A stretch of DNA of 64,000 nt from a phage: NCBI GenBank assembly GCA_017686895.1, contig GCA_017686895.1_4521.1; one strand, written 5' to 3'. A program made the translations under genes and the position numbers. Positions 40,020 to 54,220 of this stretch are shown in pieces. The notes beneath the pieces were generated by a model. It saw nothing but the letters and a program-made list of their open reading frames with translations, made no database searches and had not been told where the DNA came from. Every line of letters begins with the position of its first letter. Position 1 is the first letter of the stretch.

Positions 40020-40910
40020 ATGAATTTAATATATCTTATAACCTTTTATAATCGTGAGATTAAAAATGAATACCCGTGTTATTATATAGGTTCTAAAGTT
40101 TCGTGTCATTTTAATGGAAAGGATATTATTGAAGATTCTACCGGTAAAATATATACCGGTAGTGTTAATTCCTCGTATTCTCCTTTATATAACAGATTAA
40201 TAGACCAAGGCGAATATTCTGTAAAAATTTTAGGCGAAACCACATTAGACCCTAGAAGAATAGAAAGACTATTCCAACTCAATGTTAAAGCCGTTTCAAA
40301 TGAAAAATATTTTAATAAGGCTTATGCTAACGAGAAGTCTAGAATATCAGCTAAAGGATATGCACCGTATAAAAATTTAAAAACAGGCAAAATAGTAAAA
40401 CTTTCTAAAAACGAAATAAACGAAGATTACGTCGGTGTTAGAAAAAATTGCAAATTGTCGGAGAATCATTTAAACGCAATTAGAGAATTTCAAAAAACAT
40501 ATTGGACCAAAGAACGAAGAGAGAAAGTTTCTATTCGTTCTAAAAAAATGTTTAACGATAGAGATTTTGCTTTAAAATTTAAAGATATAATGAATTCTCC
40601 TAATGTTAAAGATAAAATAAAAATATCTAAAACATTGTATTGGTCTAAACCTGAAAATAGAGCAAAGGCCTCTATCGCAGCTTCGAAAAGAAATGCAACC
40701 AAAGAATTTAAGGATAAATTCAGAAAATCTAAAGCTAGAGGTACATGGATATTTCATGAACAAAAATTAAAGGAATTGTGGATTGCTTTAGGAAAACCAA
40801 GTTATATTACATTTAGAAAACATGCAATTCAGCATGGTTTTAATGATGAATCATACCAAGGTGCTATCCGGTCTTGGACAAATTATTATGCTAATAGGAA
40901 ACCTAAATGA
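40020..40910 (+). mobile_element. free-standing GIY-YIG homing endonuclease gene (seg-like)
   Basis: N-terminus MNLIYLITFYNREIKNEYPCYYIGS gives the GIY-(10 aa)-YIG spacing; Lys-rich C-terminal DNA-binding region; markedly AT-rich; inserted between rpbA and 45. Confidence 0.6.
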
Positions 40911-42632: not shown

Positions 42633-43196
42633 ATGAACTTATTCGATGATGACGTCCAGCTTAACGAGCACCAAATTGCATGGAAGTCTAATGACGCTGA
42701 TGCGATTCAAAAATGTGCTGATATGTTTAAAGAAAAACCTGAGAATGAATTCTTTAAAATCATTAATGCTATTAATGAAAAGAAATCTATGTCAATTGCT
42801 CAGGTCGACTACTCAAAATTTATGGTTGAGAACTCATTATCCCAGTTTCCAGAATGTATGCCAGCTGTTTACATGATGAACTTAGTCGGTTCTGAATTAA
42901 GCGATGAAGCGCACTTCAACTATATGATGGCGGCAATTCCGCGTGGTCGTCGATTCTCTAAATGGGCTAAACTAGTCGAAGACACTTCAGAGTTACTAGT
43001 TATCAAACTGTTGATGAAACATTACACAATCAACATGAATGACGCCACTGAGTATAAGCGGCTCCTTGAAAAAAATAACAAGTTGCCAATAGTCCTTAAA
43101 GAACTGAAGGCCATGGTCACTGATGAATTTCTCAAAGAAGTTACCAAAAACGTGAAAGAACAAAAACAATTTAAAAAATTAGCATTGGAATGGTAA
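42633..43196 (+). CDS. 62: clamp loader small subunit gp62
   Basis: 187 aa; [19 protein letters not shown]... resembles T4 gp62. Confidence 0.9.
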
Positions 43197-43198
43197 AA

Positions 43199-43567
43199 AT
43201 GATTGAAATTAAATTGAAGAACCCCGAAGATTTTCTGAAAGTCAAAGAGACTTTGACCCGTATGGGCATCGCTAATAACAAGGATAAAGTCCTTTACCAG
43301 TCTTGTCATATCCTCCAAAAGCAAGGTAAATATTACATCGTCCACTTTAAAGAAATGCTGCGTATGGACGGACGTCAGGTTGATATTGATGGTGAAGACT
43401 ATCAGCGACGTGATTCGATTGCTCAGTTGCTTGAAGACTGGGGCTTGATTGTTATTGAAGACTCTGCTCGTGAAGATCTATTTAGCCTGACTAATAACTT
43501 CCGAGTTATCTCTTTTAAACAGAAAGATGACTGGACTTTGAAAGCAAAATATACAATTGGTAATTAA
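43199..43567 (+). CDS. regA: translational repressor RegA
   Basis: MIEIKLKNPEDFLKVKETLTRMGIANNKDKVLYQSCHILQK...; 122 aa; start at ATG 43199 (track start 43190 is GTG). Confidence 0.9.
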   Translation: MIEIKLKNPEDFLKVKETLTRMGIANNKDKVLYQSCHILQKQGKYYIVHFKEMLRMDGRQVDIDGEDYQRRDSIAQLLEDWGLIVIEDSAREDLFSLTNNFRVISFKQKDDWTLKAKYTIGN

Positions 43568-43572
43568 AGCAA

Positions 43573-43591
43573 TGGGACTTCGGTCCCATTT
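43573..43591 (+). terminator. intrinsic terminator
   Basis: TGGGAC-TTCG-GTCCCA then TTT; a TATAAT follows at about 43596. Confidence 0.65.
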
Positions 43592-43648
43592 GGAGTATAA
43601 TGAGTTCATCAACAAACAAAAGACAATAACTCGTCTAAAGGAAATTAA

Positions 43649-46360
43649 ATGAAAGAATTTTACTTAACGGTTGAACAGATTGGTGATTCAATTTTTGAAC
43701 GTTACATCGATTCTAATGGCCGTGAACGTACTCGTGAAGTAGAATATAAACCATCACTGTTTGCTCATTGTCCAGAAAGTCAGGCTACGAAATATTTCGA
43801 TATCTACGGTAAGCCGTGTACTCGTAAGTTGTTCGCTAATATGCGTGATGCCTCCCAATGGATTAAACGCATGGAAGATATCGGACTTGAAGCACTTGGC
43901 ATGGACGATTTCAAATTGGCGTATTTGTCTGACACTTATAACTATGAAATCAAATACGACCATACAAAAATTCGTGTGGCTAACTTCGACATCGAAGTAA
44001 CATCTCCGGATGGGTTCCCTGAGCCGTCACAAGCAAAACATCCAATTGATGCTATCACCCATTATGACTCAATTGATGACAGGTTCTACGTATTTGATCT
44101 ATTGAATTCTCCATATGGTAATGTAGAAGAATGGTCTATTGAAATCGCTGCTAAGCTTCAAGAACAAGGTGGTGATGAAGTTCCATCTGAAATTATCGAT
44201 AAAATCATTTATATGCCATTCGATAATGAAAAAGAATTGTTGATGGAATATCTCAACTTCTGGCAACAGAAAACTCCTGTCATTTTGACTGGATGGAACG
44301 TTGAGTCATTTGATATTCCATATGTGTATAACCGAATCAAGAATATTTTTGGCGAATCTACTGCGAAACGTTTATCACCACATCGTAAAACTCGTGTTAA
44401 AGTTATCGAAAACATGTATGGTTCTCGTGAAATCATTACATTGTTCGGTATCTCTGTTCTTGATTATATCGACCTTTACAAAAAATTCTCTTTCACAAAC
44501 CAACCGTCGTATTCTCTGGATTACATTTCAGAATTTGAATTGAATGTCGGTAAACTGAAATATGACGGTCCTATTTCTAAACTTCGTGAAAGTAATCACC
44601 AACGATATATTTCTTATAACATTATCGACGTGTATCGTGTATTGCAAATTGATGCTAAACGCCAGTTCATCAACTTGAGTTTGGACATGGGTTATTATGC
44701 TAAGATACAGATTCAATCTGTGTTTAGCCCAATTAAAACATGGGATGCTATTATTTTTAATAGCCTTAAAGAGCAGAACAAGGTGATTCCACAAGGTCGT
44801 TCTCACCCGGTTCAACCTTATCCTGGCGCTTTTGTTAAGGAACCTATTCCAAATCGATACAAATATGTAATGAGTTTCGACCTTACATCTCTGTATCCAA
44901 GTATTATTCGCCAAGTGAATATTAGCCCAGAAACAATAGCAGGAACGTTTAAAGTAGCTCCATTGCATGATTATATTAACGCAATCGCTGAACGTCCTTC
45001 AGATGTGTACAGTTGCTCTCCTAACGGCATGATGTATTATAAAGACCGTGACGGTGTAGTTCCAACCGAAATCACCAAGGTCTTTAATCAACGTAAAGAA
45101 CATAAAGGTTATATGCTTGCTGCTCAACGTAACGGTGAAATAATTAAAGAGGCATTGCATAATCCTAATCTTTCTGTTGATGAACCATTAGATGTTGATT
45201 ATCGTTTCGACTTCACTGACGAGATTAAAGAAAAGATTAAAAAGTTGTCTGCTAAATCTCTTAATGAAATGTTGTTTAGAGCTCAACGTACTGAAGTTGC
45301 AGGTATGACTGCCCAAATTAACCGTAAATTGCTCATCAACTCGCTTTATGGTGCACTTGGCAACGTTTGGTTCCGTTATTACGATTTGCGTAATGCTACT
45401 GCAATCACAACATTTGGTCAAATGGCTTTACAATGGATTGAACGTAAAGTTAATGAATATCTGAATGAAGTTTGTGGTACAGAAGGTGAAGCTTTCGTTC
45501 TTTATGGTGATACAGACTCTATTTACGTATCTGCTGATAAAATTATCGATAAGGTTGGTGAATCTAAATTCCGTGATACCAACCATTGGGTAGACTTCTT
45601 AGATAAGTTCGCACGTGAACGTATGGAACCAGCTATTGATAAAGGTTTCCGTGAAATGTGTGAATACATGAACAATAAACAACACTTAATGTTCATGGAC
45701 CGAGAAGCTATCGCTGGTCCTCCGCTTGGTTCTAAAGGTATTGGTGGATTCTGGACTGGTAAGAAACGTTATGCATTAAACGTGTGGGATATGGAAGGAA
45801 CTAGATACGCTGAGCCTAAACTCAAAATCATGGGTCTAGAGACTCAGAAATCTTCGACCCCTAAAGCAGTACAGAAAGCTCTTAAAGAATGTATTCGTCG
45901 TATGCTTCAAGAAGGTGAAGAATCATTACAAGAATATTTTAAAGAGTTTGAAAAAGAATTCCGTCAATTGAATTATATTAGCATCGCGTCGGTATCTTCT
46001 GCGAATAACATTGCTAAATATGATGTAGGTGGATTCCCTGGTCCTAAATGTCCGTTCCATATTCGTGGAATTCTGACATATAACCGAGCTATCAAAGGTA
46101 ATATTGATGCTCCACAAGTTGTAGAAGGTGAAAAAGTATATGTTCTGCCTTTACGTGAAGGAAACCCATTCGGTGATAAATGTATCGCATGGCCTTCTGG
46201 TACTGAAATCACAGATTTAATTAAAGACGACGTACTTCATTGGATGGACTACACTGTTCTCCTTGAGAAGACATTTATTAAACCACTTGAAGGATTCACA
46301 TCAGCAGCGAAACTCGATTACGAGAAGAAAGCATCTCTGTTCGATATGTTCGATTTTTGA
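43649..46360 (+). CDS. 43: DNA polymerase gp43 (family B, 3'-5' exonuclease)
   Basis: 903 aa; exo motifs FDIE and YNIIDV, polymerase motifs DxxSLYPS, KILINSLYG, YGDTDS. Confidence 0.97.
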   Translation: MKEFYLTVEQIGDSIFERYIDSNGRERTREVEYKPSLFAHCPESQATKYFDIYGKPCTRKLFANMRDASQWIKRMEDIGLEALGMDDFKLAYLSDTYNYEIKYDHTKIRVANFDIEVTSPDGFPEPSQAKHPIDAITHYDSIDDRFYVFDLLNSPYGNVEEWSIEIAAKLQEQGGDEVPSEIIDKIIYMPFDNEKELLMEYLNFWQQKTPVILTGWNVESFDIPYVYNRIKNIFGESTAKRLSPHRKTRVKVIENMYGSREIITLFGISVLDYIDLYKKFSFTNQPSYSLDYISEFELNVGKLKYDGPISKLRESNHQRYISYNIIDVYRVLQIDAKRQFINLSLDMGYYAKIQIQSVFSPIKTWDAIIFNSLKEQNKVIPQGRSHPVQPYPGAFVKEPIPNRYKYVMSFDLTSLYPSIIRQVNISPETIAGTFKVAPLHDYINAIAERPSDVYSCSPNGMMYYKDRDGVVPTEITKVFNQRKEHKGYMLAAQRNGEIIKEALHNPNLSVDEPLDVDYRFDFTDEIKEKIKKLSAKSLNEMLFRAQRTEVAGMTAQINRKLLINSLYGALGNVWFRYYDLRNATAITTFGQMALQWIERKVNEYLNEVCGTEGEAFVLYGDTDSIYVSADKIIDKVGESKFRDTNHWVDFLDKFARERMEPAIDKGFREMCEYMNNKQHLMFMDREAIAGPPLGSKGIGGFWTGKKRYALNVWDMEGTRYAEPKLKIMGLETQKSSTPKAVQKALKECIRRMLQEGEESLQEYFKEFEKEFRQLNYISIASVSSANNIAKYDVGGFPGPKCPFHIRGILTYNRAIKGNIDAPQVVEGEKVYVLPLREGNPFGDKCIAWPSGTEITDLIKDDVLHWMDYTVLLEKTFIKPLEGFTSAAKLDYEKKASLFDMFDF

Positions 46361-46400
46361 TATAATACCATGGACGGTAAACTAATTAAATGAGAGAAAT

Positions 46401-47036
46401 ATGAAAACTACACCAATCACTATCGCTATTGACGCAATCGTAAAACAAGCTTCTTCTTTGGCTACTATGGCCAAAGTAATTAGTCAAAACCCTGCTCGTT
46501 ATAATGCTATTCTAGAAACTCTTCGACGCCCTGGACTGAGTAATTATGAAAGCCGAGTAATTATTACAGGTGTTGGTAAGAACGCTAATATCGCAACTAA
46601 AGCTTCCGAGACTTTTGCTTCACTAGGTATTCCTAGCATGTATTTGAACACCGGGCATTATTCTCATGGCGACGCAGGGTTTATTGCACCTAATGATGTA
46701 TTAGTTCACATCAGTCGTTCTGGTAAGACTGAAGAAATGATAGGTGTTGCTAAACATCTTCGTATGATTCGTCCTCAGGTTAAACAGATTCTGTTACATT
46801 GTAACCCTGACATTCCGCAAGAATACGAAGCTCTTTTTGATTATACGTTCTGTACAGGCATCGCGGTAGAGGTTGATGAGAATTCTCTGGCTCCGACCAT
46901 GTCCACTACATTGTTGTTAGCGCTTATCGATACGTTTGCTATCAACCTTTCGTCTGAACGTGGATTTACCTCTAATGACTTCCTTAAGTTCCACCCTGGT
47001 GGTGCACTAGGTGCCATGTTACGAGGCGAACAATGA
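46401..47036 (+). CDS. SIS-domain phosphosugar isomerase (KdsD/GutQ-like arabinose-5-phosphate isomerase without CBS domains)
   Basis: RVIITGVGKNANIATK, HISRSGKTEE and C-terminal FLKFHPGGALGAMLRG match the KdsD-type SIS domain as I recall it; 211 aa. Confidence 0.8.
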   Translation: MKTTPITIAIDAIVKQASSLATMAKVISQNPARYNAILETLRRPGLSNYESRVIITGVGKNANIATKASETFASLGIPSMYLNTGHYSHGDAGFIAPNDVLVHISRSGKTEEMIGVAKHLRMIRPQVKQILLHCNPDIPQEYEALFDYTFCTGIAVEVDENSLAPTMSTTLLLALIDTFAINLSSERGFTSNDFLKFHPGGALGAMLRGEQ

Positions 47037-47176
47037 AAGCAATAACAATAGGACTTTTACTATTGATGCTTGTCATGACTATCTACTGGAGCTTAACGGC
47101 TCCAGTAATGATTCCGACTCTTATAATCGGATGGATTATGATTGGACTACAAACAAAGTATGAATGCTTTAACTAG
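47033..47176 (+). CDS. small two-helix membrane protein (47 aa)
   Basis: MKAITIGLLLLMLVMTIYWSLTAPVMIPTLIIGWIMIGLQTKYECFN; ATGA overlap with SIS gene; hand-identified. Confidence 0.35.
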   Translation: MKAITIGLLLLMLVMTIYWSLTAPVMIPTLIIGWIMIGLQTKYECFN

Positions 47177-47189
47177 AATAGTGTACAAT
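47165..47189 (+). promoter_or_regulatory. candidate MotA-type middle promoter
   Basis: TGCTTTA box, 12 bp, TACAAT, about 28 bp upstream of ATG 47218. Confidence 0.45.
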
Positions 47190-47217
47190 ACACCTACTTA
47201 CCAATGAGGACCACAAC

Positions 47218-48903
47218 ATGAAAAAAGCTGTTATTCTTGGTGCTGGACTGGCAACTCGTTTGTATCCAATAACGCACCATATTCCTAAGGTGCTTGTTAA
47301 CTATAAACAAGACACTATTCTGAGCAATTTGTATACAATTTATTCTGACCTTGGTGCAGATGAAATTATTGTAGTAGTTCATTCAAAATTTGTTGAAACT
47401 GTTCGAGCTTATTGTGAGCAAGAAGGGTTCAATGTGACTATTCGTACAGTTGATGAAGCGTATGGTTCTGCTTATGCTCTTGCTAAATTATACAAAGATT
47501 TAGATGGCCATAACGTAATTGTTAACTGGTGTGATATTATTCCTGATTTTGGTTCATGGTCTTGGAATGTTAACGCAATCTATGTTAAGGGTGATGAATG
47601 TCGATATAATTTCGATGGTGAAAATATCACTAACGTAGGTTCAACAGGCGGTAATGTTGTAGGAATTTATCAGTTCAAAGACTGGGAATTCTATATGGGT
47701 TCTACTGATGAGGAAATTCATGAATACTGCAAAGGGCGTGATTTCGTAGAATTCCTTTACGGCAGTGCATTCAATAAATCAGAGCTTATGAATCTAATTG
47801 ATTTAGGTGATATGCCTAAACTTGAAAAAGCTCATGAAGTTCGTGAACTTAATCGTAGTTTTAATGCAGTTGAAATTGGTGAAGAAACTGTAACTAAATT
47901 CGCATTAACCGAACAGGGACGAGCTCTTCAGAAAGATGAGATTTCGTGGTATCTTAAAGTGAAATCAGATTCAGTTCCTCAGTTAGTTTCTGTTAATGAA
48001 AATAACTTTGAAATGGAACGCATTAAAGGTAAGCCAGCATTTGAATATATTAAATCCAAATCAAGTCTTGCTCGTCCACAAATTGTTGATGCAATTTTAG
48101 ATGCACTGAAATTCAGCACAGACACTTATTTTGTAAGTCCTGAAACTGTTCGTCGTGATTTCACTAAAGAATTCTATACGAAAGTTATTGATCGTTGTGA
48201 AAGCATTCAACCATTGATTGATTCATTTGGTAAAATCACACATGTGAACTACACTAAGATTGGACGTCTGAAGCCAATGCTGAAACAAGCTTTAGAACAC
48301 CTTATTCGTTATCATAACCGTTCTCAGGGACAGTACTCTGTTATTCATGGTGACCCGAACTTCAGTAATACTATGATTACTGATAACGGCGAAGTCAAGT
48401 TTATCGACCCTCGTGGATATTTTGGCGAAACCAAGATTTACGGGCCAAAATTGTACGATGAAGCTAAAGTGCTTTATGCTGTTTCAGGTTATGATGAATT
48501 CAATGCTAATCCGACCTGGGGACAGTTTACTATTGATGAAACAACTTGTAATGTGACTATTAACATCAATCCATTAATTTACAAATATGGAAAGATGAGT
48601 TCGTTTAACGAGTATCATCATTTGGCGGTGGCAATTATCTGGATTGCATTAGGTGGTTATTTCAAGAATAATCCACTTAAAGCGGTAGCCGCATATTATA
48701 AAGGTATGGAACTTCTGACTAAGCAATTACGCAACATGGGCCGTGTACTTCAAGACGGCTCTATTAGTTATGACGTAGCAGAACCTGTAACGGCTACTCT
48801 GATTACAAAAAATCCTGGTAAATGGGTACTAACTGATAAAGAAACTGGTGTTTCCTATCGTCCAATCGGTGGCGATATCACTCATCAATGGGAACGAATC
48901 TAA
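47218..48903 (+). CDS. bifunctional sugar-phosphate nucleotidyltransferase / APH-ChoK-fold kinase
   Basis: N-terminal AVILGAGLATRLYPITHHIPKVLV (sugar nucleotidyltransferase G-x-G-x-R-L-x-P-x-T motif); C-terminal VIHGDPNFSNTMI and FIDPRGYFG (aminoglycoside/choline kinase Brenner and DxE-like motifs). Confidence 0.75.
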   Translation: MKKAVILGAGLATRLYPITHHIPKVLVNYKQDTILSNLYTIYSDLGADEIIVVVHSKFVETVRAYCEQEGFNVTIRTVDEAYGSAYALAKLYKDLDGHNVIVNWCDIIPDFGSWSWNVNAIYVKGDECRYNFDGENITNVGSTGGNVVGIYQFKDWEFYMGSTDEEIHEYCKGRDFVEFLYGSAFNKSELMNLIDLGDMPKLEKAHEVRELNRSFNAVEIGEETVTKFALTEQGRALQKDEISWYLKVKSDSVPQLVSVNENNFEMERIKGKPAFEYIKSKSSLARPQIVDAILDALKFSTDTYFVSPETVRRDFTKEFYTKVIDRCESIQPLIDSFGKITHVNYTKIGRLKPMLKQALEHLIRYHNRSQGQYSVIHGDPNFSNTMITDNGEVKFIDPRGYFGETKIYGPKLYDEAKVLYAVSGYDEFNANPTWGQFTIDETTCNVTININPLIYKYGKMSSFNEYHHLAVAIIWIALGGYFKNNPLKAVAAYYKGMELLTKQLRNMGRVLQDGSISYDVAEPVTATLITKNPGKWVLTDKETGVSYRPIGGDITHQWERI

Positions 48904-49289
48904 TGCACCGTGTAGAAAACATGCTTAATCTTTGTTTTGATGTCGATGATTGTATAACAGAGTGGAATAACAATCGTGATTACGTGAACTTCAAACCAGA
49001 CGTCGAAATGGTGTCTGCCATTAATGCCCTGTATGATGCAGGGCATACCATAACGCTTTACACTGCTCGTGGTATGAAGTCAGTAGGTCCTGGTCGTATA
49101 GCAATTGACATTCTCCCAAGTCTGATTCAGAACTTGGCAAACATTGGCTTGAAGTACCATAATTTGCTAACACATAAACCAGTATATGATTGGATTATCG
49201 ACGACAAAGCTATGCGTCCTGACGAATTCAAAGCTCTTATGAATAAAGGCGAATTCGAAACATTTAAATCATATAAACCGAATCTATAA
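48903..49289 (+). CDS. HAD-superfamily phosphatase
   Basis: Motif I FDVDDCIT (DxDxT), motif III-like K-x-DWIIDDK; TAATG overlap with upstream gene. Confidence 0.65.
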   Translation: MHRVENMLNLCFDVDDCITEWNNNRDYVNFKPDVEMVSAINALYDAGHTITLYTARGMKSVGPGRIAIDILPSLIQNLANIGLKYHNLLTHKPVYDWIIDDKAMRPDEFKALMNKGEFETFKSYKPNL

Positions 49290-49335
49290 TAATTTAAGTA
49301 AGACCTGCAAAAACCATCGCATCAATTAACGCGAG

Positions 49336-50505
49336 ATGCAAAAAATGAATACTTTTAAAATCGGAACGAATTTTGATTTAGCTCTTCTTGATAAAATCGT
49401 AGAGCTCAATAAAACCTATCCTAATAGCTTGATAAACGAAGTATATGGCTCTACAAGAGAAATGGCTTTTGTAGCAGCCAGACCTGATTTTAGGCTTCCT
49501 GACGTTGACAAAAAGATGTTAGAAGATTACGTTAAACGTTGTAACGAATTAGGTATTTGCTTTAACTATACACTCAACACGATAAATCCTGGTTCAAAAA
49601 GAGAACTAGTTGAGTGGAAGAAGAAAGCTATTCAGGATTATGTTCAGTATCTTTGGTCAATAGGCGTATGGCGTATTACTATCGCTAACCCTGTTGTTAT
49701 GGAAATTGTTCGTGAAGTCAATAAAGATATTGAGATTGAAGTTTCAACAATTCTACATGTCGATGCGGTAACTCAAATCAAATACTTACATGACCAATAT
49801 AACATCAAAAAGGTCTGTTGCGGAATTCATAAGAACCGTTCAGTTTCTTTCCTGAAGCGTGCAGCAGAGTTTTGCAATAAGAACAATATAATATTTGAAG
49901 TTCTTGTAAATGAGTTCTGTTCTAATGCTGGTAAAGGGTATACAACACATTGTAGTTATCGTGACTCTTGCTATATTTTCCATAGTACTGATGTTACAGC
50001 TGATGATGCTAAATCCTTAAATGGATATCCAATGCAACACTGCATTAAAGCTCGTGATACAGACCCATTTAACTGGTTGAGAACTCGTTTTGTTCGTCCT
50101 CAAGATTTGAAACTTTATAATGATATTGGTATCACTCAATTCAAAGTTTCAGGACGTACAGGTAGCACAGACTACATTTTGAAAGTTCTTGAAGCATACG
50201 CTTCTGAAAAGTTTGAAGGTAATTTGTTAGAACTGTGGAAGCCTTTAGAGACTATTTTCACTCTTGAAAATGAGACTGAGTTTTCACATACAGTAAATAT
50301 TGAAACCTCTTTGTTAGATGGCTTTTTAGAAAAAAGGTGGTTCAGACATCCAGATTTTGATTGTGCTAATGAAATCTGTGGGTCAACGTGTACATATTGT
50401 GAAAGGTATTATAAACGTCAATTATCTAAAAACGGGTTAGCAGAAAACTCCATATCTATTATTGATATAACTAACTCTGATGACGCTTTGAGGTACCCGG
50501 AATGA
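49336..50505 (+). CDS. Cys-rich protein with peptidase-U32-like features (tentative)
   Basis: EVLVNEFCSNAGKGYTTHCSYRDSC resembles the U32 signature region; many cysteines including C-terminal CGSTCTYC (Cx3Cx2C); family not confirmed. Confidence 0.3.
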   Translation: MQKMNTFKIGTNFDLALLDKIVELNKTYPNSLINEVYGSTREMAFVAARPDFRLPDVDKKMLEDYVKRCNELGICFNYTLNTINPGSKRELVEWKKKAIQDYVQYLWSIGVWRITIANPVVMEIVREVNKDIEIEVSTILHVDAVTQIKYLHDQYNIKKVCCGIHKNRSVSFLKRAAEFCNKNNIIFEVLVNEFCSNAGKGYTTHCSYRDSCYIFHSTDVTADDAKSLNGYPMQHCIKARDTDPFNWLRTRFVRPQDLKLYNDIGITQFKVSGRTGSTDYILKVLEAYASEKFEGNLLELWKPLETIFTLENETEFSHTVNIETSLLDGFLEKRWFRHPDFDCANEICGSTCTYCERYYKRQLSKNGLAENSISIIDITNSDDALRYPE

Positions 50506-50741
50506 TTTCTAGAAAAAGTTTTAATTATAAACTTAACGAAGAGATTTTGACTATGAAACTGAACACTAACGAACAAATTCTTAAAAAGGCCCTTATGGGC
50601 CTGTTTGAAACCAAAGCGGCTAAAGTGATTAAAGAACCTGTTCAATTGGAATACTACACTGATGCATTCCTTCATAGTGTTCTTGGAAGTATAGATTCTG
50701 AAGCTTTACGTTATATCAACATTGTCAAGAAATTCAAATAA
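50502..50741 (+). CDS. hypothetical protein
   Basis: 79-aa ORF, ATGA overlap. Confidence 0.4.
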   Translation: MISRKSFNYKLNEEILTMKLNTNEQILKKALMGLFETKAAKVIKEPVQLEYYTDAFLHSVLGSIDSEALRYINIVKKFK

Positions 50742-50764
50742 GCTTTATGAATTGAGTATATAAT
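50742..50764 (+). promoter_or_regulatory. candidate middle promoter (approximate coordinates)
   Basis: GCTTTA box, 11 bp, TATAAT, about 20 bp upstream of ATG 50784. Confidence 0.4.
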
Positions 50765-50783
50765 AAATTGTATTGAGGTAAAT

Positions 50784-51500
50784 ATGGGAAAACATAACAC
50801 AATGAAATATATCAAAGCCGCAGATTTTCAAACCGCATTTAAAGCAGTCAATCGTGAAATTTTAGAAAACCCCGAATTCGTAACTGATTCTCGTATTGGA
50901 CGTTGTAATGAAATTGGGTCTATGACAGTAGTTGTTGACACTCCATCATCATTCAAAATGACCGACCCACGTATTAACCGCATCTCTTATGAATATGCCG
51001 AAGACTTCTGGAAGTTTATGATTTCTGGTGGTACCAACGCAGAAGAAGCGTTTAAGGCATATCCTAATGTCGCTAAATTTATTTCTAAACCAAAATCAGA
51101 TGTTTTGCCGGCGAACTTCAACACTTTCTATGGTCCTCGCATTGCGGCCCAATTACCAACTCTTCTAAAAGAACTTAAAGAAAAACCTAACTCTCGAAGA
51201 GTTGTGTTCCAAATTCTAGAAAGTTCTGATCAGGCTTTGCTTGATTCGGACGAAACACTTGAATATCCATGTACTGACTCAGTAACTTATTATATTCGTG
51301 ATGGTAAGCTTTATACCCACTGTCATATGCGTTCTCAGAACTGTGCTGTTGTTATGCAGTTGGATTTTTATCTCCAAGGAAAATTACTTCATTATATCGC
51401 TAACGAATGCGGTGTAGAAGTTGGTGATTATACTCATACCATGGTAAGTGCCCATGTGTTTGAACGTGATTTTGATTATGTTAAAGGATTCCTTGACTAA
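50784..51500 (+). CDS. 42: thymidylate-synthase-fold pyrimidine hydroxymethylase (dCMP hydroxymethylase-like, divergent)
   Basis: PNSRRVVFQI, catalytic-Cys region YPCTDSVTYYIRDGKLYTHCHMRSQN and VSAHVFERDF align to the PDSRRGIMIY / MCTNTVQYLIRD..NMRSND / GSLHVYSRHF blocks of T4 gp42 as I recall them. Confidence 0.65.
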   Translation: MGKHNTMKYIKAADFQTAFKAVNREILENPEFVTDSRIGRCNEIGSMTVVVDTPSSFKMTDPRINRISYEYAEDFWKFMISGGTNAEEAFKAYPNVAKFISKPKSDVLPANFNTFYGPRIAAQLPTLLKELKEKPNSRRVVFQILESSDQALLDSDETLEYPCTDSVTYYIRDGKLYTHCHMRSQNCAVVMQLDFYLQGKLLHYIANECGVEVGDYTHTMVSAHVFERDFDYVKGFLD

Positions 51501-52399
51501 TGGCTATTTTCCGCGTACCAATCTTGAGTATGCGGTCTTATGAAACTGGACAGTATGCTATCCTTAAGGATGGCAACTTCCAACTTCATTTGCACCGTGC
51601 TAATCCAGGTGATGTGATTACATATCCACGTAATGCATCTGATATTAAAGAATGCGAACGTCTTTTCCCAGAATTTAAGTTTGTTCCATTATGGTATAAA
51701 GATAACGCGTATAACACTCGTAAATATTTCTGGTCTGAAAATGAATTTGTGGTTGATTCATTAATTGCTTATTATGATTGTGATTTTCTAATCACAGATA
51801 TCACCGGATATGACGGCGCTTTTGATGTGGAATTCAATTTCAATATCACTGCAGACCCTAATAAACCACGTTTTTATATTGACGAATTCTTAAAAACTGA
51901 TATGTTGTCGGTTAATCGTTCACTTCAAACTACTGTGTTGAATGAACGTCAAAAAGAAGTGCTGGTTAACGCAGGTGCAGATGGTAATAAGATTATCGTA
52001 ACGCAGAAAGTTATACGTCCTTCCATCATGCAGCGTCTTGTAGGTGATTTGGCTCCTATTCATCTAGATGGTATTTTTCATCCATTTCGAATTAGTGACC
52101 CGTGCTATCGTTTTGAACAAGTGGTTGAATGTGCAATTCAATTAGGCCAACCGCTTTATATAACCGATCCAAATAATAGCTTCGACAGAAATAAGTATCC
52201 TGAAGAAGCATTGATTCGAATTTTTAAACCAACTAAAACTGAGTACTATCAAATTCTTAAAGGACGTCCGAAGATTCAATATTTCGAAAATCCTGAAGAA
52301 GTATTCCATCCAGGTCTTGGTGAGTTCATCTACTTTAATGCTTTAATTTCTTCGCCGTATAATATACCTAAATATGAAGATGTCGTAATCGAGGAATAA
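51500..52399 (+). CDS. hypothetical protein at the beta-gt position
   Basis: 299-aa ORF with no recognised motif; TAATG overlap with hydroxymethylase; occupies the slot of T4 beta-glucosyltransferase. Confidence 0.3.
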   Translation: MAIFRVPILSMRSYETGQYAILKDGNFQLHLHRANPGDVITYPRNASDIKECERLFPEFKFVPLWYKDNAYNTRKYFWSENEFVVDSLIAYYDCDFLITDITGYDGAFDVEFNFNITADPNKPRFYIDEFLKTDMLSVNRSLQTTVLNERQKEVLVNAGADGNKIIVTQKVIRPSIMQRLVGDLAPIHLDGIFHPFRISDPCYRFEQVVECAIQLGQPLYITDPNNSFDRNKYPEEALIRIFKPTKTEYYQILKGRPKIQYFENPEEVFHPGLGEFIYFNALISSPYNIPKYEDVVIEE

Positions 52400-52400
52400 A

Positions 52401-52949
52401 ATGGCTAAAATTATTTTAGTAGATGGCCCGGATAATGCTGGTAAAACAACTTTCATTAATGACATAATGGAAATTAGTGAAAGATATGTAAAGATTGATT
52501 TCCCTAAACGAACAGTTGATGGACGTTTCGATGTTAAGTCTCGAAATGAAGTTGGCTGTTTCGAAACTATGTTGAATTATTTAGACCCTACTAAGATTTA
52601 TCTATTAGACCGTGGATATATTAGTAACTGGGTTTATGGACGTATTCGACAAGATGCGGACTCGGTTCTTGACGTTTATGAACAGGATTATGTTCGTCTT
52701 TGCCAAAACCATGATGTGTTCACAATTATTTTAACACGTAACGAAATGACTGAAAGTTTTGAAGACGACCTTATTACTTTGTCTTCATTCGGTTTTAATA
52801 CAGTAATTTCACATTTTGAAGAGTTTGCAATTCATAACGAAATCCAAACGTATCAATTACTTAATCATGATGGTGCTAACAAAGTTATAGGATTTAATGC
52901 AAGCGAACGTAATAATTTGATTACAGAAATCATCAAATGGGCTCGTTAA
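52401..52949 (+). CDS. thymidylate-kinase-like P-loop nucleotide kinase
   Basis: Walker A ILVDGPDNAGKTT and DRGYISNWVYG (Tmk DR-Y-like motif). Confidence 0.6.
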   Translation: MAKIILVDGPDNAGKTTFINDIMEISERYVKIDFPKRTVDGRFDVKSRNEVGCFETMLNYLDPTKIYLLDRGYISNWVYGRIRQDADSVLDVYEQDYVRLCQNHDVFTIILTRNEMTESFEDDLITLSSFGFNTVISHFEEFAIHNEIQTYQLLNHDGANKVIGFNASERNNLITEIIKWAR

Positions 52950-53047
52950 GAGCCATTTAAAGTTTTAAATGCTGTATAACCCTTAGTATATAATCATCTT
53001 ATCTTTTAAACATGAGTAAAATATAATGATGCCTATGGAAAAATACA

Positions 53048-54220
53048 ATGTCTGATTTAAAATCTCGTCTGATTAAAGCTTCTACTTCTAAAATGACTGC
53101 AGACTTGACTAAGTCTAAGCTGTTTAATAATCGTGATGAAGTCCCTACTCGTATTCCAATGTTGAATATTGCACTAGGTGGTGCACTGAATGCAGGGTTG
53201 CAATCAGGCTTAACTATTTTTGCTGCTCCTTCTAAACATTTTAAAACGTTGTTTGGGCTGACCATGGTTGCAGCATATATGAAGAAATATAAAGATGCAA
53301 TCTGTTTGTTTTATGACTCAGAATTCGGTGCTTCAGAATCTTACTTCCGTTCGATGGGTGTTGATTTAGACCGTGTAGTTCATACTCCGATTCAATCCGT
53401 CGAACAACTTAAAGTTGATATGACTAATCAGCTTGACGCGATTGAACGCGGCGATAAAGTTATTATCTTTATCGATTCAATCGGTAATACTGCATCTAAG
53501 AAAGAAACCGAAGATGCGTTGAACGAGAAAGTTGTAGGTGATATGTCTCGTGCTAAGGCACTTAAATCTCTTTTCCGTATTGTGACTCCTTATCTGACTA
53601 TTAAAGATATTCCGTGTGTTGCAATTAACCATACTGCAATGGAAATTGGCGGATTGTATCCTAAAGAGATTATGGGCGGTGGTACAGGTATTCTTTATTC
53701 CGCCAACACGGTATTTTTTATCTCTAAACGTCAGGTTAAAGAAGGTACAGAATTGACCGGTTATGACTTCACGTTGAAAGCAGAAAAATCTCGTACAGTT
53801 AAAGAGAAATCTACTTTCCCGATCACGGTTAATTTCGACGGTGGTATCGACCCATTCAGTGGCTTGTTAGAAATGGCAACTGAAATCGGTTTTGTGGTTA
53901 AGCCTAAAGCTGGTTGGTATGCTCGCGAATTCCTTGACGAAGAAACAGGTGAAATGATTCGTGAAGAAAAATCATGGCGTGCTAAAGCTACTGATTGTGT
54001 AGAATTCTGGGGACCTTTGTTTAAACATAAGCCTTTCCGTGACGCAATTGAAACTAAATATAAACTAGGTGCTATCTCTTCTATTAAAGAAGTTGATGAC
54101 GCTGTTAACGACCTTATTAATTGCAAAGCAACAACTAAAGTTCCGGTTAAAACTTCTAATGCTCCGTCTGCAGCAGATATAGAAAACGACCTTGACGAAA
54201 TGGAAGATTTCGATGAATAA
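53048..54220 (+). CDS. uvsX: RecA-like recombinase UvsX
   Basis: MSDLKSRLIKASTSKMTADLTKSKLFNN ... Walker A and L1/L2 regions; 390 aa, colinear with T4 UvsX. Confidence 0.97.
   Translation: MSDLKSRLIKASTSKMTADLTKSKLFNNRDEVPTRIPMLNIALGGALNAGLQSGLTIFAAPSKHFKTLFGLTMVAAYMKKYKDAICLFYDSEFGASESYFRSMGVDLDRVVHTPIQSVEQLKVDMTNQLDAIERGDKVIIFIDSIGNTASKKETEDALNEKVVGDMSRAKALKSLFRIVTPYLTIKDIPCVAINHTAMEIGGLYPKEIMGGGTGILYSANTVFFISKRQVKEGTELTGYDFTLKAEKSRTVKEKSTFPITVNFDGGIDPFSGLLEMATEIGFVVKPKAGWYAREFLDEETGEMIREEKSWRAKATDCVEFWGPLFKHKPFRDAIETKYKLGAISSIKEVDDAVNDLINCKATTKVPVKTSNAPSAADIENDLDEMEDFDE

What the first reader, a model, noticed from the sequence alone, without database searches (positions are those of the whole stretch)
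47218..48903. Nucleotidyltransferase-kinase fusion: candidate one-polypeptide sugar-1-kinase / NDP-sugar pyrophosphorylase
The N-terminal ~230 aa carry the sugar nucleotidyltransferase Gly-rich motif (GAGLATRLYPIT...PKVLV); the C-terminal ~250 aa carry kinase motifs of the aminoglycoside/choline-kinase fold (HGDPNFSN, IDPRGYFG). Such a fusion would turn a free sugar into an NDP-sugar in two steps on one protein. In a phage it would make the DNA-modification donor independent of host UDP-glucose.
Basis: partly seen in the sequence, partly recalled or inferred. Interest (0 to 1): 0.75.

Follow-up and report, generated by a model that had tools for sequence, protein, structure and literature searches.

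The report
Known phage UDP-arabinose synthesis fusion enzyme
This gene is a real two-domain enzyme (sugar kinase plus nucleotidyltransferase) that RB69-like phages use to make the activated arabinose that decorates their DNA, but it has been predicted since 2018 and, as reported second-hand in a 2026 paper, assayed in a related phage, so it is not new.

Summary
Window 47218-48903 (+) is one intact 561-aa ORF. Its N-terminal domain (aa 1-~208) is a sugar-1-phosphate nucleotidyltransferase. Its C-terminal domain (aa ~211-517) is a choline-kinase/aminoglycoside-phosphotransferase-fold kinase. All quoted motifs are present and invariant in 48 homologues.

The window is an RB69-like (Mosigvirus) T4-type coliphage, and the protein is 99.5% identical to RB69 ORF053c+052c (gp52:53). 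That gene was proposed as a UDP-arabinose biosynthesis enzyme in 2018. A 2026 NAR paper equates it with phage HY126 AfhE, which it reports (citing He et al. 2026) to be a bifunctional D-arabinose-5-phosphate kinase / UDP-D-arabinose pyrophosphorylase.

The kinase acts on arabinose-5-phosphate, not free sugar. That substrate comes from the upstream isomerase or the host. The downstream HAD phosphatase must remove the 5-phosphate before the transferase domain acts. The logic matches the ADP-heptose pathway.

Verdict: already known, low interest.

By-products worth more attention:
- A highly conserved U32-family gene in the same cluster, paired with chorismate mutase in five phage genera. This suggests an oxygen-independent route to 5-hydroxycytosine.
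- Homologous fusions next to arabinose-5-phosphate isomerase in many bacterial and archaeal genomes, and four-domain fusions on a giant-virus-like contig.

The parts
47218..48903 (+). Bifunctional enzyme (RB69 gp52:53 / AfhE-type), 561 aa: arabinose-5-phosphate 1-kinase plus UDP-arabinofuranose pyrophosphorylase
   Evidence: ORF. 99.5% identical to RB69 ORF053c+052c. PHROG 4098 full length, E 5e-294. Model pLDDT 94.
47218..47841 (+). N-terminal sugar-1-phosphate nucleotidyltransferase domain (aa 1-~208), with GxGxxR (aa 8-14), K24, D106 and D195/D198
   Evidence: Pfam PF00483 E 3.7e-9. PDB sequence hit to LicC 1jyk, E 2.6e-5. Foldseek hits to RmlA/MurU/LicC/HddC, E ~1e-8. Invariant residues.
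47848..48768 (+). C-terminal kinase domain of the choline-kinase/APH fold (aa ~211-517), with K227, E241, HGDxxxxN (aa 377-384) and IDPRG (aa 396-400)
48769..48900 (+). C-terminal tail (aa ~518-561) of short beta strands with lower model confidence; role unknown
   Evidence: pLDDT 79-88 and DSSP strands at 546-549 and 558-560. Distant homologues cover only ~89% of the query and lack this tail.
46401..47036 (+). Arabinose-5-phosphate isomerase (SIS domain; RB69 gp55). It supplies the kinase substrate from ribulose-5-phosphate.
   Evidence: Pfam SIS E 8e-10. NCBIfam KpsF/GutQ E 9e-32 and KdsD E 4e-30. PHROG 5670.
47033..47176 (+). 47-aa hydrophobic small ORF between the isomerase and the fusion. 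Its start overlaps the isomerase stop (ATGA). Function unknown.
   Evidence: Translation. PHROG 3610 E 2e-26. Annotated in CAU_ECP01 and in LC53 ('Transmembrane segment(s)').
47165..47189 (+). T4-type middle-promoter-like site (MotA box TGCTTTA, 12-nt spacer, TACAAT), 28 nt upstream of the fusion start codon
   Evidence: The pattern occurs 19 times in the window against 3.8 expected, and 0 of 100 shuffles reach 19. Assigning it as a middle promoter is inference from the known T4 consensus.
48903..49289 (+). Small HAD-type phosphatase (RB69 gp51 / AfhF-type), 128 aa. Its start overlaps the fusion's stop (TAATG). It removes the 5-phosphate from arabinose-1,5-bisphosphate.
   Evidence: NCBIfam TIGR01689 capsule biosynthesis phosphatase, E 3.8e-13, below its cutoff. 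HAD motifs DVD (aa 13-15), T53, K92 and DD (aa 100-101) in the sequence. Function taken from PMC13326640.
50784..51500 (+). Thymidylate-synthase homologue (RB69 gp48 type 5-hydroxy-dCMP synthase). It makes the acceptor base.
   Evidence: Pfam Thymidylat_synt E 1.9e-15. RSQN at 51330-51341, which I read as the D169N signature that PMC13326640 describes, by aligning to E. coli ThyA from memory.
51500..52399 (+). Candidate first DNA arabinosyltransferase (RB69 gp46:47 type). It would consume the UDP-arabinofuranose.
   Evidence: PHROG 3891 E 3e-156. Position and assignment follow PMC13326640 Table 1. No Pfam hit.

Best explanation
The gene encodes the RB69 gp52:53 / AfhE-type bifunctional enzyme of the phage UDP-D-arabinofuranose pathway. 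The proposed steps are:
1. Ribulose-5-phosphate is converted to D-arabinose-5-phosphate by the phage isomerase (46401-47036), or by host KdsD/GutQ.
2. The C-terminal choline-kinase/APH-fold domain uses ATP to phosphorylate the anomeric C1 hydroxyl, giving arabinofuranose-1,5-bisphosphate.
3. The HAD phosphatase encoded immediately downstream (48903-49289, start overlapping the fusion's stop) removes the 5-phosphate.
4. The N-terminal RmlA/MurU/LicC-type domain condenses arabinofuranose-1-phosphate with UTP to give UDP-arabinofuranose.
5. Phage glycosyltransferases transfer the sugar to 5-hydroxycytosine in DNA. That base is made by the thymidylate-synthase homologue at 50784-51500.

Shown here: the ORF, both folds, the catalytic residues, the gene context and the near-identity to RB69.

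Taken from the literature or inferred: the substrates, the order of the steps and the nucleotide.
For: - ORF and motifs.
- Transferase domain.
- Kinase fold, including anomeric sugar kinases and methylthioribose kinase.
- Catalytic residues invariant in 48 homologues.
- 99.5% identity to RB69 ORF053c+052c.
- RB69 ORF53_52c was resequenced as a single 561-aa protein and proposed for UDP-arabinose synthesis (PMC6024577).
- PMC13326640 equates RB69 gp52:53 with HY126 AfhE. It reports, citing He et al., D-arabinose-5-phosphate kinase plus UDP-D-arabinose pyrophosphorylase activity for AfhE, and phosphatase activity for AfhF.
- UDP-Araf is used by DLP3 transferases in vitro.
- Isomerase, fusion and phosphatase are adjacent in the window and in Serratia, Proteus and Yersinia phages.
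- Klebsiella phage kv_tblp8 keeps the fusion and phosphatase but shows no isomerase in the fetched cluster. This fits a substrate the host already makes.
- Four-domain HAD-SIS-transferase-kinase fusions exist.
- 41 of 80 bacterial or archaeal homologues have an arabinose-5-phosphate isomerase gene within 1 kb.
- The Thanatos homologue is essential for phage growth (PMC12838424).
Against: - No enzyme assay exists for this exact protein.
- The primary biochemical paper (He et al. 2026, Nat Chem Biol) is not in the library, so the AfhE activities are known here only second-hand.
It could be about 99%, 72% or 42%, judging by the coliphage groups.
- Table 1 of PMC13326640 still lists the older order (phosphatase first, then kinase on free arabinose).
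- The kinase domain gets only sub-threshold Pfam hits.
- Nothing computed here determines nucleotide or sugar specificity.
Confidence: 0.8

Rival explanations
1. Free-sugar route, as the first reader proposed and as Table 1 of PMC13326640 still lists. The HAD phosphatase first removes the phosphate from arabinose-5-phosphate. The kinase domain then phosphorylates free arabinose at C1, and the transferase domain makes the NDP-sugar.
For: Table 1 of PMC13326640 reads 'Phosphorylates Ara to Araf1p' and 'dephosphorylates Araf5p to Ara'. The nearest kinase folds (NahK, glucosamine kinase, maltokinase) act on unphosphorylated sugars.
Against: The text of the same paper, citing He et al., states that AfhE phosphorylates arabinose-5-phosphate and that AfhF acts on the 1,5-bisphosphate. 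The isomerase, bifunctional kinase/transferase and small HAD phosphatase layout mirrors the ADP-heptose pathway (GmhA, HldE, GmhB), where the bisphosphate is the intermediate (established knowledge). A free pentose would be less likely to remain in the furanose form found in the DNA adduct (inference).
Confidence: 0.12
2. Same architecture but a different substrate pair, for example another pentose such as xylose or a deoxypentose, or a nucleotide other than UTP.
For: Specificity cannot be read from the sequence. The Thanatos study first reported a deoxypentose. Bacterial homologues sit beside a ribulose-phosphate-3-epimerase-like gene instead of the isomerase in Dakarella.
Against: RB69 DNA carries arabinose (PMC6024577; PMC13326640). 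The protein is 99.5% identical to that of RB69. An arabinose-5-phosphate isomerase lies immediately upstream. The Thanatos homologue made no NDP-xylose from xylose-1-phosphate with any of five NTPs. UDP-Araf is the donor that works in vitro.
Confidence: 0.04
3. A LicCA-type enzyme: choline or another amino-alcohol kinase plus a cytidylyltransferase, activating a non-sugar head group.
Against: The neighbours are a sugar-phosphate isomerase, a phosphatase, the base hydroxylase and glycosyltransferases. The phage DNA adduct is arabinose. Identities to LicC and LicA are only 12-20%.
Confidence: 0.02
4. A DNA glycosyltransferase with an attached phosphotransferase, as suggested for Thanatos TH1_060 and as implied by the 'glycosyltransferase family A' domain label.
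For: CDD labels the N-terminus as GT-A superfamily. The Thanatos authors kept this option open.
Against: The N-terminal domain carries the nucleotidyltransferase GxGxxR/K signature and matches RmlA, MurU and LicC rather than transferases that act on acceptors. TH1_060 transferred no sugar to DNA, dCMP or dCTP. Separate GT-B-type transferases are encoded nearby.
Confidence: 0.02

Closest known systems
RB69 ORF53_52c (gp52:53) and phage HY126 AfhE: bifunctional D-arabinose-5-phosphate kinase / UDP-D-arabinose pyrophosphorylase
   Same: Same length (561 aa), 99.5% identity to the RB69 protein, same domain order, and the same neighbours: isomerase, HAD phosphatase, 5-hydroxy-dCMP synthase and glycosyltransferase.
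   Different: No difference of substance from RB69.
ADP-heptose pathway: GmhA isomerase, HldE bifunctional kinase/adenylyltransferase, GmhB phosphatase
   Same: Identical logic: sugar-phosphate isomerase, anomeric kinase giving a bisphosphate, HAD phosphatase removing the distal phosphate, then nucleotidyl transfer, with kinase and transferase fused on one polypeptide (established knowledge). PMC13326640 reports a structural match of the phage phosphatase to a heptose-1,7-bisphosphate 7-phosphatase.
   Different: To my knowledge HldE uses a ribokinase (PfkB) fold kinase at the N-terminus and a cytidylyltransferase-fold domain at the C-terminus. The phage enzyme has an RmlA-type transferase at the N-terminus and a protein-kinase-like kinase at the C-terminus. 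No PfkB or CTP_transf_like hit was found. This is an analogous fusion, not a homologous one.
AmgK/MurU (MurNAc anomeric kinase plus MurNAc-1-phosphate uridylyltransferase) and LicA/LicC (choline kinase plus cytidylyltransferase; fused as LicCA in some bacteria)
   Same: The same two folds are paired to turn a hydroxyl compound into an NDP derivative. MurU and LicC are among the best structural matches of the N-terminal domain, and LicA among those of the C-terminal domain.
   Different: Those enzymes act on unphosphorylated substrates in two consecutive steps with no intervening phosphatase. Sequence identity is only 12-20%.
Bacteroides FKP and Leishmania AFKP80 (bifunctional L-fucose or D-arabinopyranose 1-kinase / GDP-sugar pyrophosphorylase)
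   Same: One polypeptide that yields an NDP-sugar, including a D-arabinose nucleotide in Leishmania (my own knowledge, not checked here).
   Different: To my knowledge those use a GHMP-family kinase, GTP, the pyranose form and free sugar. No GHMP hit was found here.
GlmU, which is how many GenBank records label this gene
   Same: Only the N-terminal nucleotidyltransferase fold (NCBIfam hits far below cutoff).
   Different: To my knowledge GlmU's second domain is a hexapeptide-repeat acetyltransferase. Here the second domain is a kinase. The 'bifunctional protein GlmU' label is a misannotation.

Membership tests
AfhE / RB69 gp52:53-type bifunctional arabinose-5-phosphate kinase / UDP-arabinose pyrophosphorylase | N-terminal sugar-1-phosphate nucleotidyltransferase domain with the GxGxxR...K signature | tested here: met
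   Pfam PF00483, 37 bits against a cutoff of 21.2. G10, R14 and K24 are invariant. Foldseek matches RmlA, MurU and LicC.
AfhE / RB69 gp52:53-type bifunctional arabinose-5-phosphate kinase / UDP-arabinose pyrophosphorylase | C-terminal protein-kinase-like (APH/choline kinase) domain with a catalytic HxDxxxxN loop and a metal-binding Asp | tested here: met
AfhE / RB69 gp52:53-type bifunctional arabinose-5-phosphate kinase / UDP-arabinose pyrophosphorylase | Full-length homology to the described RB69 protein | tested here: met
   tblastn gives 99.5% identity over residues 1-561, aligned as two pieces across the RB69 ORF052c/053c split annotation. The 2018 paper traces that split to a one-base sequencing error.
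AfhE / RB69 gp52:53-type bifunctional arabinose-5-phosphate kinase / UDP-arabinose pyrophosphorylase | Homology to the biochemically assayed HY126 AfhE itself | not testable with these tools
   HY126 was not seen among the listed phage records. The He et al. paper is not held. The equivalence rests on the statement in PMC13326640.
AfhE / RB69 gp52:53-type bifunctional arabinose-5-phosphate kinase / UDP-arabinose pyrophosphorylase | Gene cluster with arabinose-5-phosphate isomerase, small HAD phosphatase, 5-hydroxy-dCMP synthase and DNA glycosyltransferase | tested here: met
   The genes lie at 46401-47036, 48903-49289, 50784-51500 and 51500-52399.
AfhE / RB69 gp52:53-type bifunctional arabinose-5-phosphate kinase / UDP-arabinose pyrophosphorylase | Kinase activity on arabinose-5-phosphate and UTP-dependent formation of UDP-arabinofuranose | not testable with these tools
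   This needs enzyme assays. It is known only second-hand, for the HY126 homologue.
Pfam APH (PF01636) / choline kinase sequence family | Profile score above the Pfam gathering threshold | tested here: inconclusive
   The window protein gets only sub-threshold hits: Fructosamin_kin 16.9 bits against 22.4, and EcKL 16.1 against 22. Several homologues carry a precomputed PF01636 hit. The fold match is clear.
HldE (bifunctional heptose kinase/adenylyltransferase) | PfkB ribokinase-fold kinase domain plus cytidylyltransferase-fold domain | tested here: not met
   No PfkB or CTP_transf_like hits in Pfam or NCBIfam. The folds found are RmlA-type and APH-type. It works like HldE but is not a member.
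GlmU (database label on many homologues) | C-terminal left-handed beta-helix acetyltransferase domain | tested here: not met
   No hexapeptide-repeat hit. GlmU models match only aa 3-106, at about 20 bits against cutoffs of 367-505. The C-terminal domain is a kinase.

The most novel reading that the evidence does not exclude
The phage enzyme may be one branch of a much larger, essentially unannotated family of sugar-phosphate 1-kinase / nucleotidyltransferase fusions.
- Homologues at 24-35% identity occur in 80 loci from bacterial and archaeal genome assemblies, including Trichodesmium, Prochlorococcus, Polynucleobacter, Sutterellaceae, Clostridia, Thermotogota, Micrarchaeota and Thermoplasmata. 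A few of these loci look like phage contigs.
- 41 of the 80 have an arabinose-5-phosphate isomerase gene within 1 kb.
- On a giant-virus-like contig and in a slime-mould transcriptome, all four activities (HAD, SIS, transferase, kinase) are fused into one ~920-955-aa protein.

If these make NDP-D-arabinofuranose or related NDP-pentofuranoses, such donors would be a widespread glycan building block in cells and giant viruses, not a phage peculiarity. I could not check whether He et al. 2026 already report this.
Probability: 0.45. Interest if true: 0.5.

Novelty: already known. Interest (0 to 1): 0.15.

Why it matters
The enzyme lets RB69-like phages build their own activated pentose donor. To my knowledge enterobacteria do not make that donor. 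The phage can therefore cover every cytosine with arabinose and escape restriction and CRISPR nucleases. This is already in the literature, so the finding itself adds nothing new.

The value of this second look lies in three things:
- It corrects the mechanism: a sugar-5-phosphate is the substrate, and a phosphatase step intervenes.
- It flags that the common GenBank labels are wrong ('GlmU' for the fusion, 'phosphoheptose isomerase' for the phosphatase).
- It raises two leads. The first is a U32-family gene paired with chorismate mutase, which may give an oxygen-independent route to 5-hydroxycytosine in phages of facultative anaerobes. The second is the wide cellular and giant-virus distribution of the isomerase and kinase-transferase module.

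Tried and rejected
- He et al. 2026 (Nat Chem Biol) and Mahler et al. 2025 (Cell Host Microbe) are not in the library. Full-text searches for 'AfhE' and 'HY126' found only the NAR paper.
- I looked for phage HY126 among the 85 tblastn rows shown and did not see it. Identity to AfhE itself therefore stays unmeasured.
- A PDB sequence search found no solved close relative; the best hit was LicC at E 2.6e-5.
- The sigma-70 promoter and terminator scan of 43000-53200 was not above chance: 32 promoter-like sites against 38 expected, and 7 terminator-like sites against 5. I discarded it in favour of the T4 middle-promoter pattern.
- jackhmmer with the 128-aa phosphatase did not detect the ~125-aa ORFs that follow the fusion in cellular loci. 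NCBIfam gave only weak HAD hints, E ~0.007. Conservation of the phosphatase outside phages remains unproven.
- The 79-aa ORF at 50502-50741 was tested as a chorismate mutase. BLASTP gave no alignment, Pfam gave no hit, and identity to the phage chorismate mutases was 15-24%. Rejected for this phage.
- The readings as GlmU, HldE, LicCA or a DNA glycosyltransferase were rejected or ranked low, as set out in the rivals and membership tests.
Full report
**What the window is.** The 6.2-kb stretch around the finding is 97-99% identical to many RB69-like (Mosigvirus) T4-type coliphages such as TH12, CCU7 and p000v. All large ORFs lie on the + strand. The finding sits directly downstream of the gp43 DNA polymerase gene (43649-46360).

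**The observation.**
- Coordinates 47218-48903 (+) hold one intact ORF of 561 aa. It starts at ATG, GAGGA lies at 47206-47210, and the stop is TAA at 48901-48903.
- The four quoted motifs lie at aa 8-19, 23-27, 377-384 and 396-403.
- Pfam places NTP_transferase on aa 3-99 (E 3.7e-9, above the gathering score). It gives only sub-threshold kinase hits around aa 354-409.
- I aligned 48 homologues down to 29% identity. The transferase residues G10, R14, K24, D106, D195 and D198 are invariant. So are the kinase residues K227, E241, H377, D379, N384, D397 and R399.
- An AlphaFold2 model of the whole protein has mean pLDDT 94. Foldseek against the PDB matches the N-terminal domain to RmlA, MurU, LicC, HddC and GDP-mannose pyrophosphorylases at E ~1e-8.
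The domains are about 208 aa and about 300 aa, followed by a ~45-aa tail of lower confidence.

**The surroundings.** The genes on the + strand, in order:

| Coordinates | Product | Evidence |
|---|---|---|
| 46401-47036 | KpsF/GutQ/KdsD-type arabinose-5-phosphate isomerase | |
| 47033-47176 | 47-aa hydrophobic ORF | |
| 47218-48903 | the fusion | |
| 48903-49289 | 128-aa HAD-type phosphatase; its ATG overlaps the fusion's TAA (TAATG); the four HAD motifs are visible | |
| 49336-50505 | U32-family protein | |
| 50502-50741 | 79-aa ORF | |
| 50784-51500 | thymidylate-synthase homologue carrying RSQN, which I read as the D169N signature of 5-hydroxy-dCMP synthases | |
| 51500-52399 | candidate arabinosyltransferase | |
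| 52401-52949 | putative nucleotide (thymidylate-type) kinase, by homology to RB69 gp45 | |

A T4 middle-promoter-like site (TGCTTTA, 12 nt, TACAAT) lies at 47165-47189. The pattern is five-fold enriched in the window, 19 occurrences against 3.8 expected. A generic sigma-70 and terminator scan was not above chance.

**What is already known.**
- The protein is 99.5% identical to RB69 ORF053c plus ORF052c.
- Thomas et al. 2018 showed that these two ORFs are one 561-residue gene split by a sequencing error. They proposed it, together with the neighbouring isomerase, as a UDP-arabinose biosynthesis enzyme (PMC6024577).
- Lee et al. 2026 showed that RB69 DNA carries mono- and di-arabinosylated 5-hydroxycytosine. 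They modelled gp52:53 as an N-terminal nucleotidyltransferase plus a C-terminal kinase.
- They also equate it with AfhE of phage HY126. Citing He et al. [quoted passage not shown] The HAD protein AfhF dephosphorylates the 1,5-bisphosphate in between (PMC13326640).
- UDP-arabinofuranose is the donor that works with DLP3 transferases in vitro.
- In Shewanella phage Thanatos the homologue TH1_060 (54% identical) is essential. It made no NDP-xylose from xylose-1-phosphate (PMC12838424).
- I could not read He et al. or Mahler et al. 2025 directly.

**Mechanism.** The best-supported sequence is:
1. Ribulose-5-phosphate is isomerised to arabinose-5-phosphate.
2. The C-terminal kinase domain phosphorylates it to arabinofuranose-1,5-bisphosphate.
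3. The HAD phosphatase converts that to arabinofuranose-1-phosphate.
4. The N-terminal domain, with UTP, forms UDP-arabinofuranose.
5. Glycosyltransferases add the sugar to 5-hydroxycytosine.

The folds, catalytic residues and gene order are shown here. The substrates and the order of steps come from the literature and from analogy with the ADP-heptose pathway (GmhA, HldE, GmhB).

- Isomerase, fusion and phosphatase are adjacent in Serratia, Proteus and Yersinia phages.
- Klebsiella phage kv_tblp8 keeps the fusion and phosphatase but shows no isomerase in the fetched cluster. This fits a substrate that the host already makes for Kdo synthesis.
- Distant homologues exist as HAD-SIS-transferase-kinase four-domain proteins.

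I give it about 0.12.

**Comparison with known systems.**
- The gene is a member of the RB69 gp52:53 / AfhE family by every feature I could test.
- It works like HldE but is not homologous to it.
- It shares both folds with the AmgK/MurU and LicA/LicC pairs, but differs in substrate class and in needing a phosphatase between the two steps.
- The GenBank labels 'bifunctional protein GlmU' (fusion) and 'phosphoheptose isomerase' (phosphatase) seen are wrong.

**Wider distribution, a by-product.**
- A scan of one genome per GTDB species found 80 loci encoding homologues of the whole fusion at 24-55% identity. The two best (L012, L013) are clearly phage-like contigs binned as bacteria.
- Most of the others lie on bacterial or archaeal contigs. 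Examples are the Trichodesmium erythraeum IMS101 chromosome, Dakarella massiliensis, Polynucleobacter, Prochlorococcus, Thermoplasmata and Micrarchaeota.
- In 41 of the 80 loci a homologue of the phage isomerase lies within 1 kb, usually abutting the fusion.
- In five loci inspected in detail, an ORF of 123-153 aa follows the fusion. These ORFs show only weak HAD signals.
- In Dakarella the upstream gene is a ribulose-phosphate-3-epimerase homologue instead of the isomerase.
- The four-domain fusion P0084 lies on a 103-kb contig between MutS-HNH, RNA polymerase Rpb2 and RNA_pol_N genes, which is a giant-virus-like context. P0091 comes from a Ceratiomyxa transcriptome.

**U32 lead, a by-product outside the finding.**
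- The U32-family protein at 49336-50505 is listed in PMC13326640 only as 'sugar or heterocycle reductase' and is not discussed in the text.
- tblastn finds it in 222 phage records. The ten commonest genus names and every host shown are Enterobacterales or Shewanella. Acinetobacter is not among the ten, and only about 12 records fall under seven further unlisted names. Yet 57 Acinetobacter phages carry the fusion.
- It is 82-89% identical across genera in which the fusion is only 42-55% identical.
- In Serratia LC53, Klebsiella kv_tblp8, Shewanella Thanatos-2, Proteus phiP4-3 and Yersinia phiR1-RT, a Pfam CM_2 chorismate mutase scoring above threshold lies just downstream of U32. It is the very next gene in three of them, and one or two small ORFs intervene in phiP4-3 and phiR1-RT.
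- In this window the 79-aa ORF in that position is not detectably a chorismate mutase.
- Ten cysteines, including a C-terminal CX4CX3CX2C motif, are invariant in 21 homologues down to 47% identity.
- Homologues at about 55% identity occur on very large phage-like contigs. One lies next to dCMP deaminase, thymidylate kinase, UDG and a DnaE-type polymerase. Another lies next to a DAHP/KDO8P-synthase-family gene.
- The abstracts found identify a U32-family gene (renamed RlhA, to my knowledge) as required for 5-hydroxycytidine at position 2501 of 23S rRNA (PMC5727448). They also identify prephenate as the oxygen donor for anaerobic ubiquinone biosynthesis (PMC10990095). To my knowledge the U32 enzymes TrhP (tRNA 5-hydroxyuridine, PMC6599085) and UbiU/UbiV belong to the same prephenate-dependent class.
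- The thymidylate-synthase-type 5-hydroxy-dCMP synthase uses flavin and molecular oxygen.
- I therefore propose that the phage U32 protein is a prephenate-dependent, oxygen-independent cytosine-5-hydroxylating enzyme. It would keep the modification pathway running in anoxic hosts.
- No held paper contains the three terms 'chorismate mutase', 'phage' and 'hydroxycytosine' together. The two key subscription papers could not be checked.

**Verdict.** Novelty is 'already known' and interest is low (0.15). The by-products deserve separate follow-up.

Noticed in passing
window 49336-50505 (+) and 50502-50741 (+); L005:5992-7502, L006:5001-6403, L007:5001-6391, L008:4995-6904, L009:5031-6668: A U32-family protein (RB69 gp50) lies between the phosphatase and the 5-hydroxy-dCMP synthase. 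Every phage host shown is Enterobacterales or Shewanella, and Acinetobacter is not among the ten commonest genera. It is 82-89% identical across genera in which the fusion is 42-55%. It has 10 invariant cysteines. In five genera a Pfam CM_2 chorismate mutase lies just downstream. Known U32 enzymes (to my knowledge RlhA, TrhP and UbiU/V) hydroxylate without O2, using prephenate. This suggests an anaerobic route to 5-hydroxycytosine. In this window the 79-aa ORF in the chorismate-mutase slot shows no detectable similarity to one.
   Followed up: partly
L002:8001-10781 (GCA_013558355.1 JACCDH010973257.1); proteins P0084, P0088, P0091, P0092, P0103: Distant homologues of the fusion occur as ~890-955-aa four-domain proteins (HAD, SIS, nucleotidyltransferase, kinase). 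One sits on a 103-kb contig between MutS-HNH, RNA polymerase Rpb2 and RNA_pol_N genes, a giant-virus-like context. Another comes from a Ceratiomyxa fruticulosa transcriptome. Versions of ~786-790 aa also exist; one of the two scanned has a weak (sub-threshold) mannose-6-phosphate-isomerase-like (cupin) hit in its C-terminal part.
   Followed up: partly
L014-L091 (genome-contig scan), e.g. L073:4798-7853 (Trichodesmium erythraeum IMS101), L044, L071, L040, L029: The transferase-kinase fusion is widespread in bacterial and archaeal genomes at 24-35% identity. In 41 of 80 loci a KpsF/GutQ-type arabinose-5-phosphate isomerase lies within 1 kb, and an ORF of 123-153 aa follows the fusion in the five loci inspected. 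In Dakarella the upstream gene is a ribulose-phosphate-3-epimerase homologue instead. This suggests an unannotated NDP-pentose pathway in cells.
   Followed up: partly
window 47033-47176 (+): A 47-aa strongly hydrophobic ORF (MKAITIGLLLLMLVMTIYWSLTAPVMIPTLIIGWIMIGLQTKYECFN) lies between the isomerase and the fusion, and its start overlaps the isomerase stop (ATGA). It matches PHROG 3610 (E 2e-26), and a similar-sized ORF annotated with transmembrane segment(s) lies at the same position in Serratia phage LC53. Its function is unknown.
   Followed up: no
window, 19 sites, e.g. 47165-47189, 52339-52363, 40568-40591 (+): The T4 middle-promoter-like pattern TGCTTNA-N11-13-TANNNT occurs 19 times against 3.8 expected by chance (0 of 100 shuffles reach 19), and 14 of the 19 are on the coding (+) strand. 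One lies 28 nt upstream of the fusion gene's start codon.
   Followed up: partly
window 48888-49289 versus 48903-49289 (+): The mechanical ORF list starts the phosphatase gene at ATG 48888, inside the fusion. Annotated relatives start it at ATG 48903, which overlaps the fusion's TAA by one base (TAATG) and suggests translational coupling.
   Followed up: yes
GenBank records of relatives (e.g. PQ572755.1, locus L001): Annotation errors are propagating: the fusion is labelled 'bifunctional protein GlmU', the HAD phosphatase 'phosphoheptose isomerase', the candidate arabinosyltransferase 'RNA polymerase binding protein', and the 79-aa ORF 'P-loop containing nucleoside triphosphate hydrolase'. The U32 protein is labelled 'peptidase'.
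   Followed up: yes
L006 (Klebsiella phage kv_tblp8) and L007 (Shewanella phage Thanatos-2): The cluster is rearranged between genera. kv_tblp8 shows no isomerase gene in the fetched cluster. In Thanatos-2 the U32 and chorismate mutase genes lie after the glycosyltransferase and kinase genes rather than before the thymidylate-synthase homologue.
   Followed up: no
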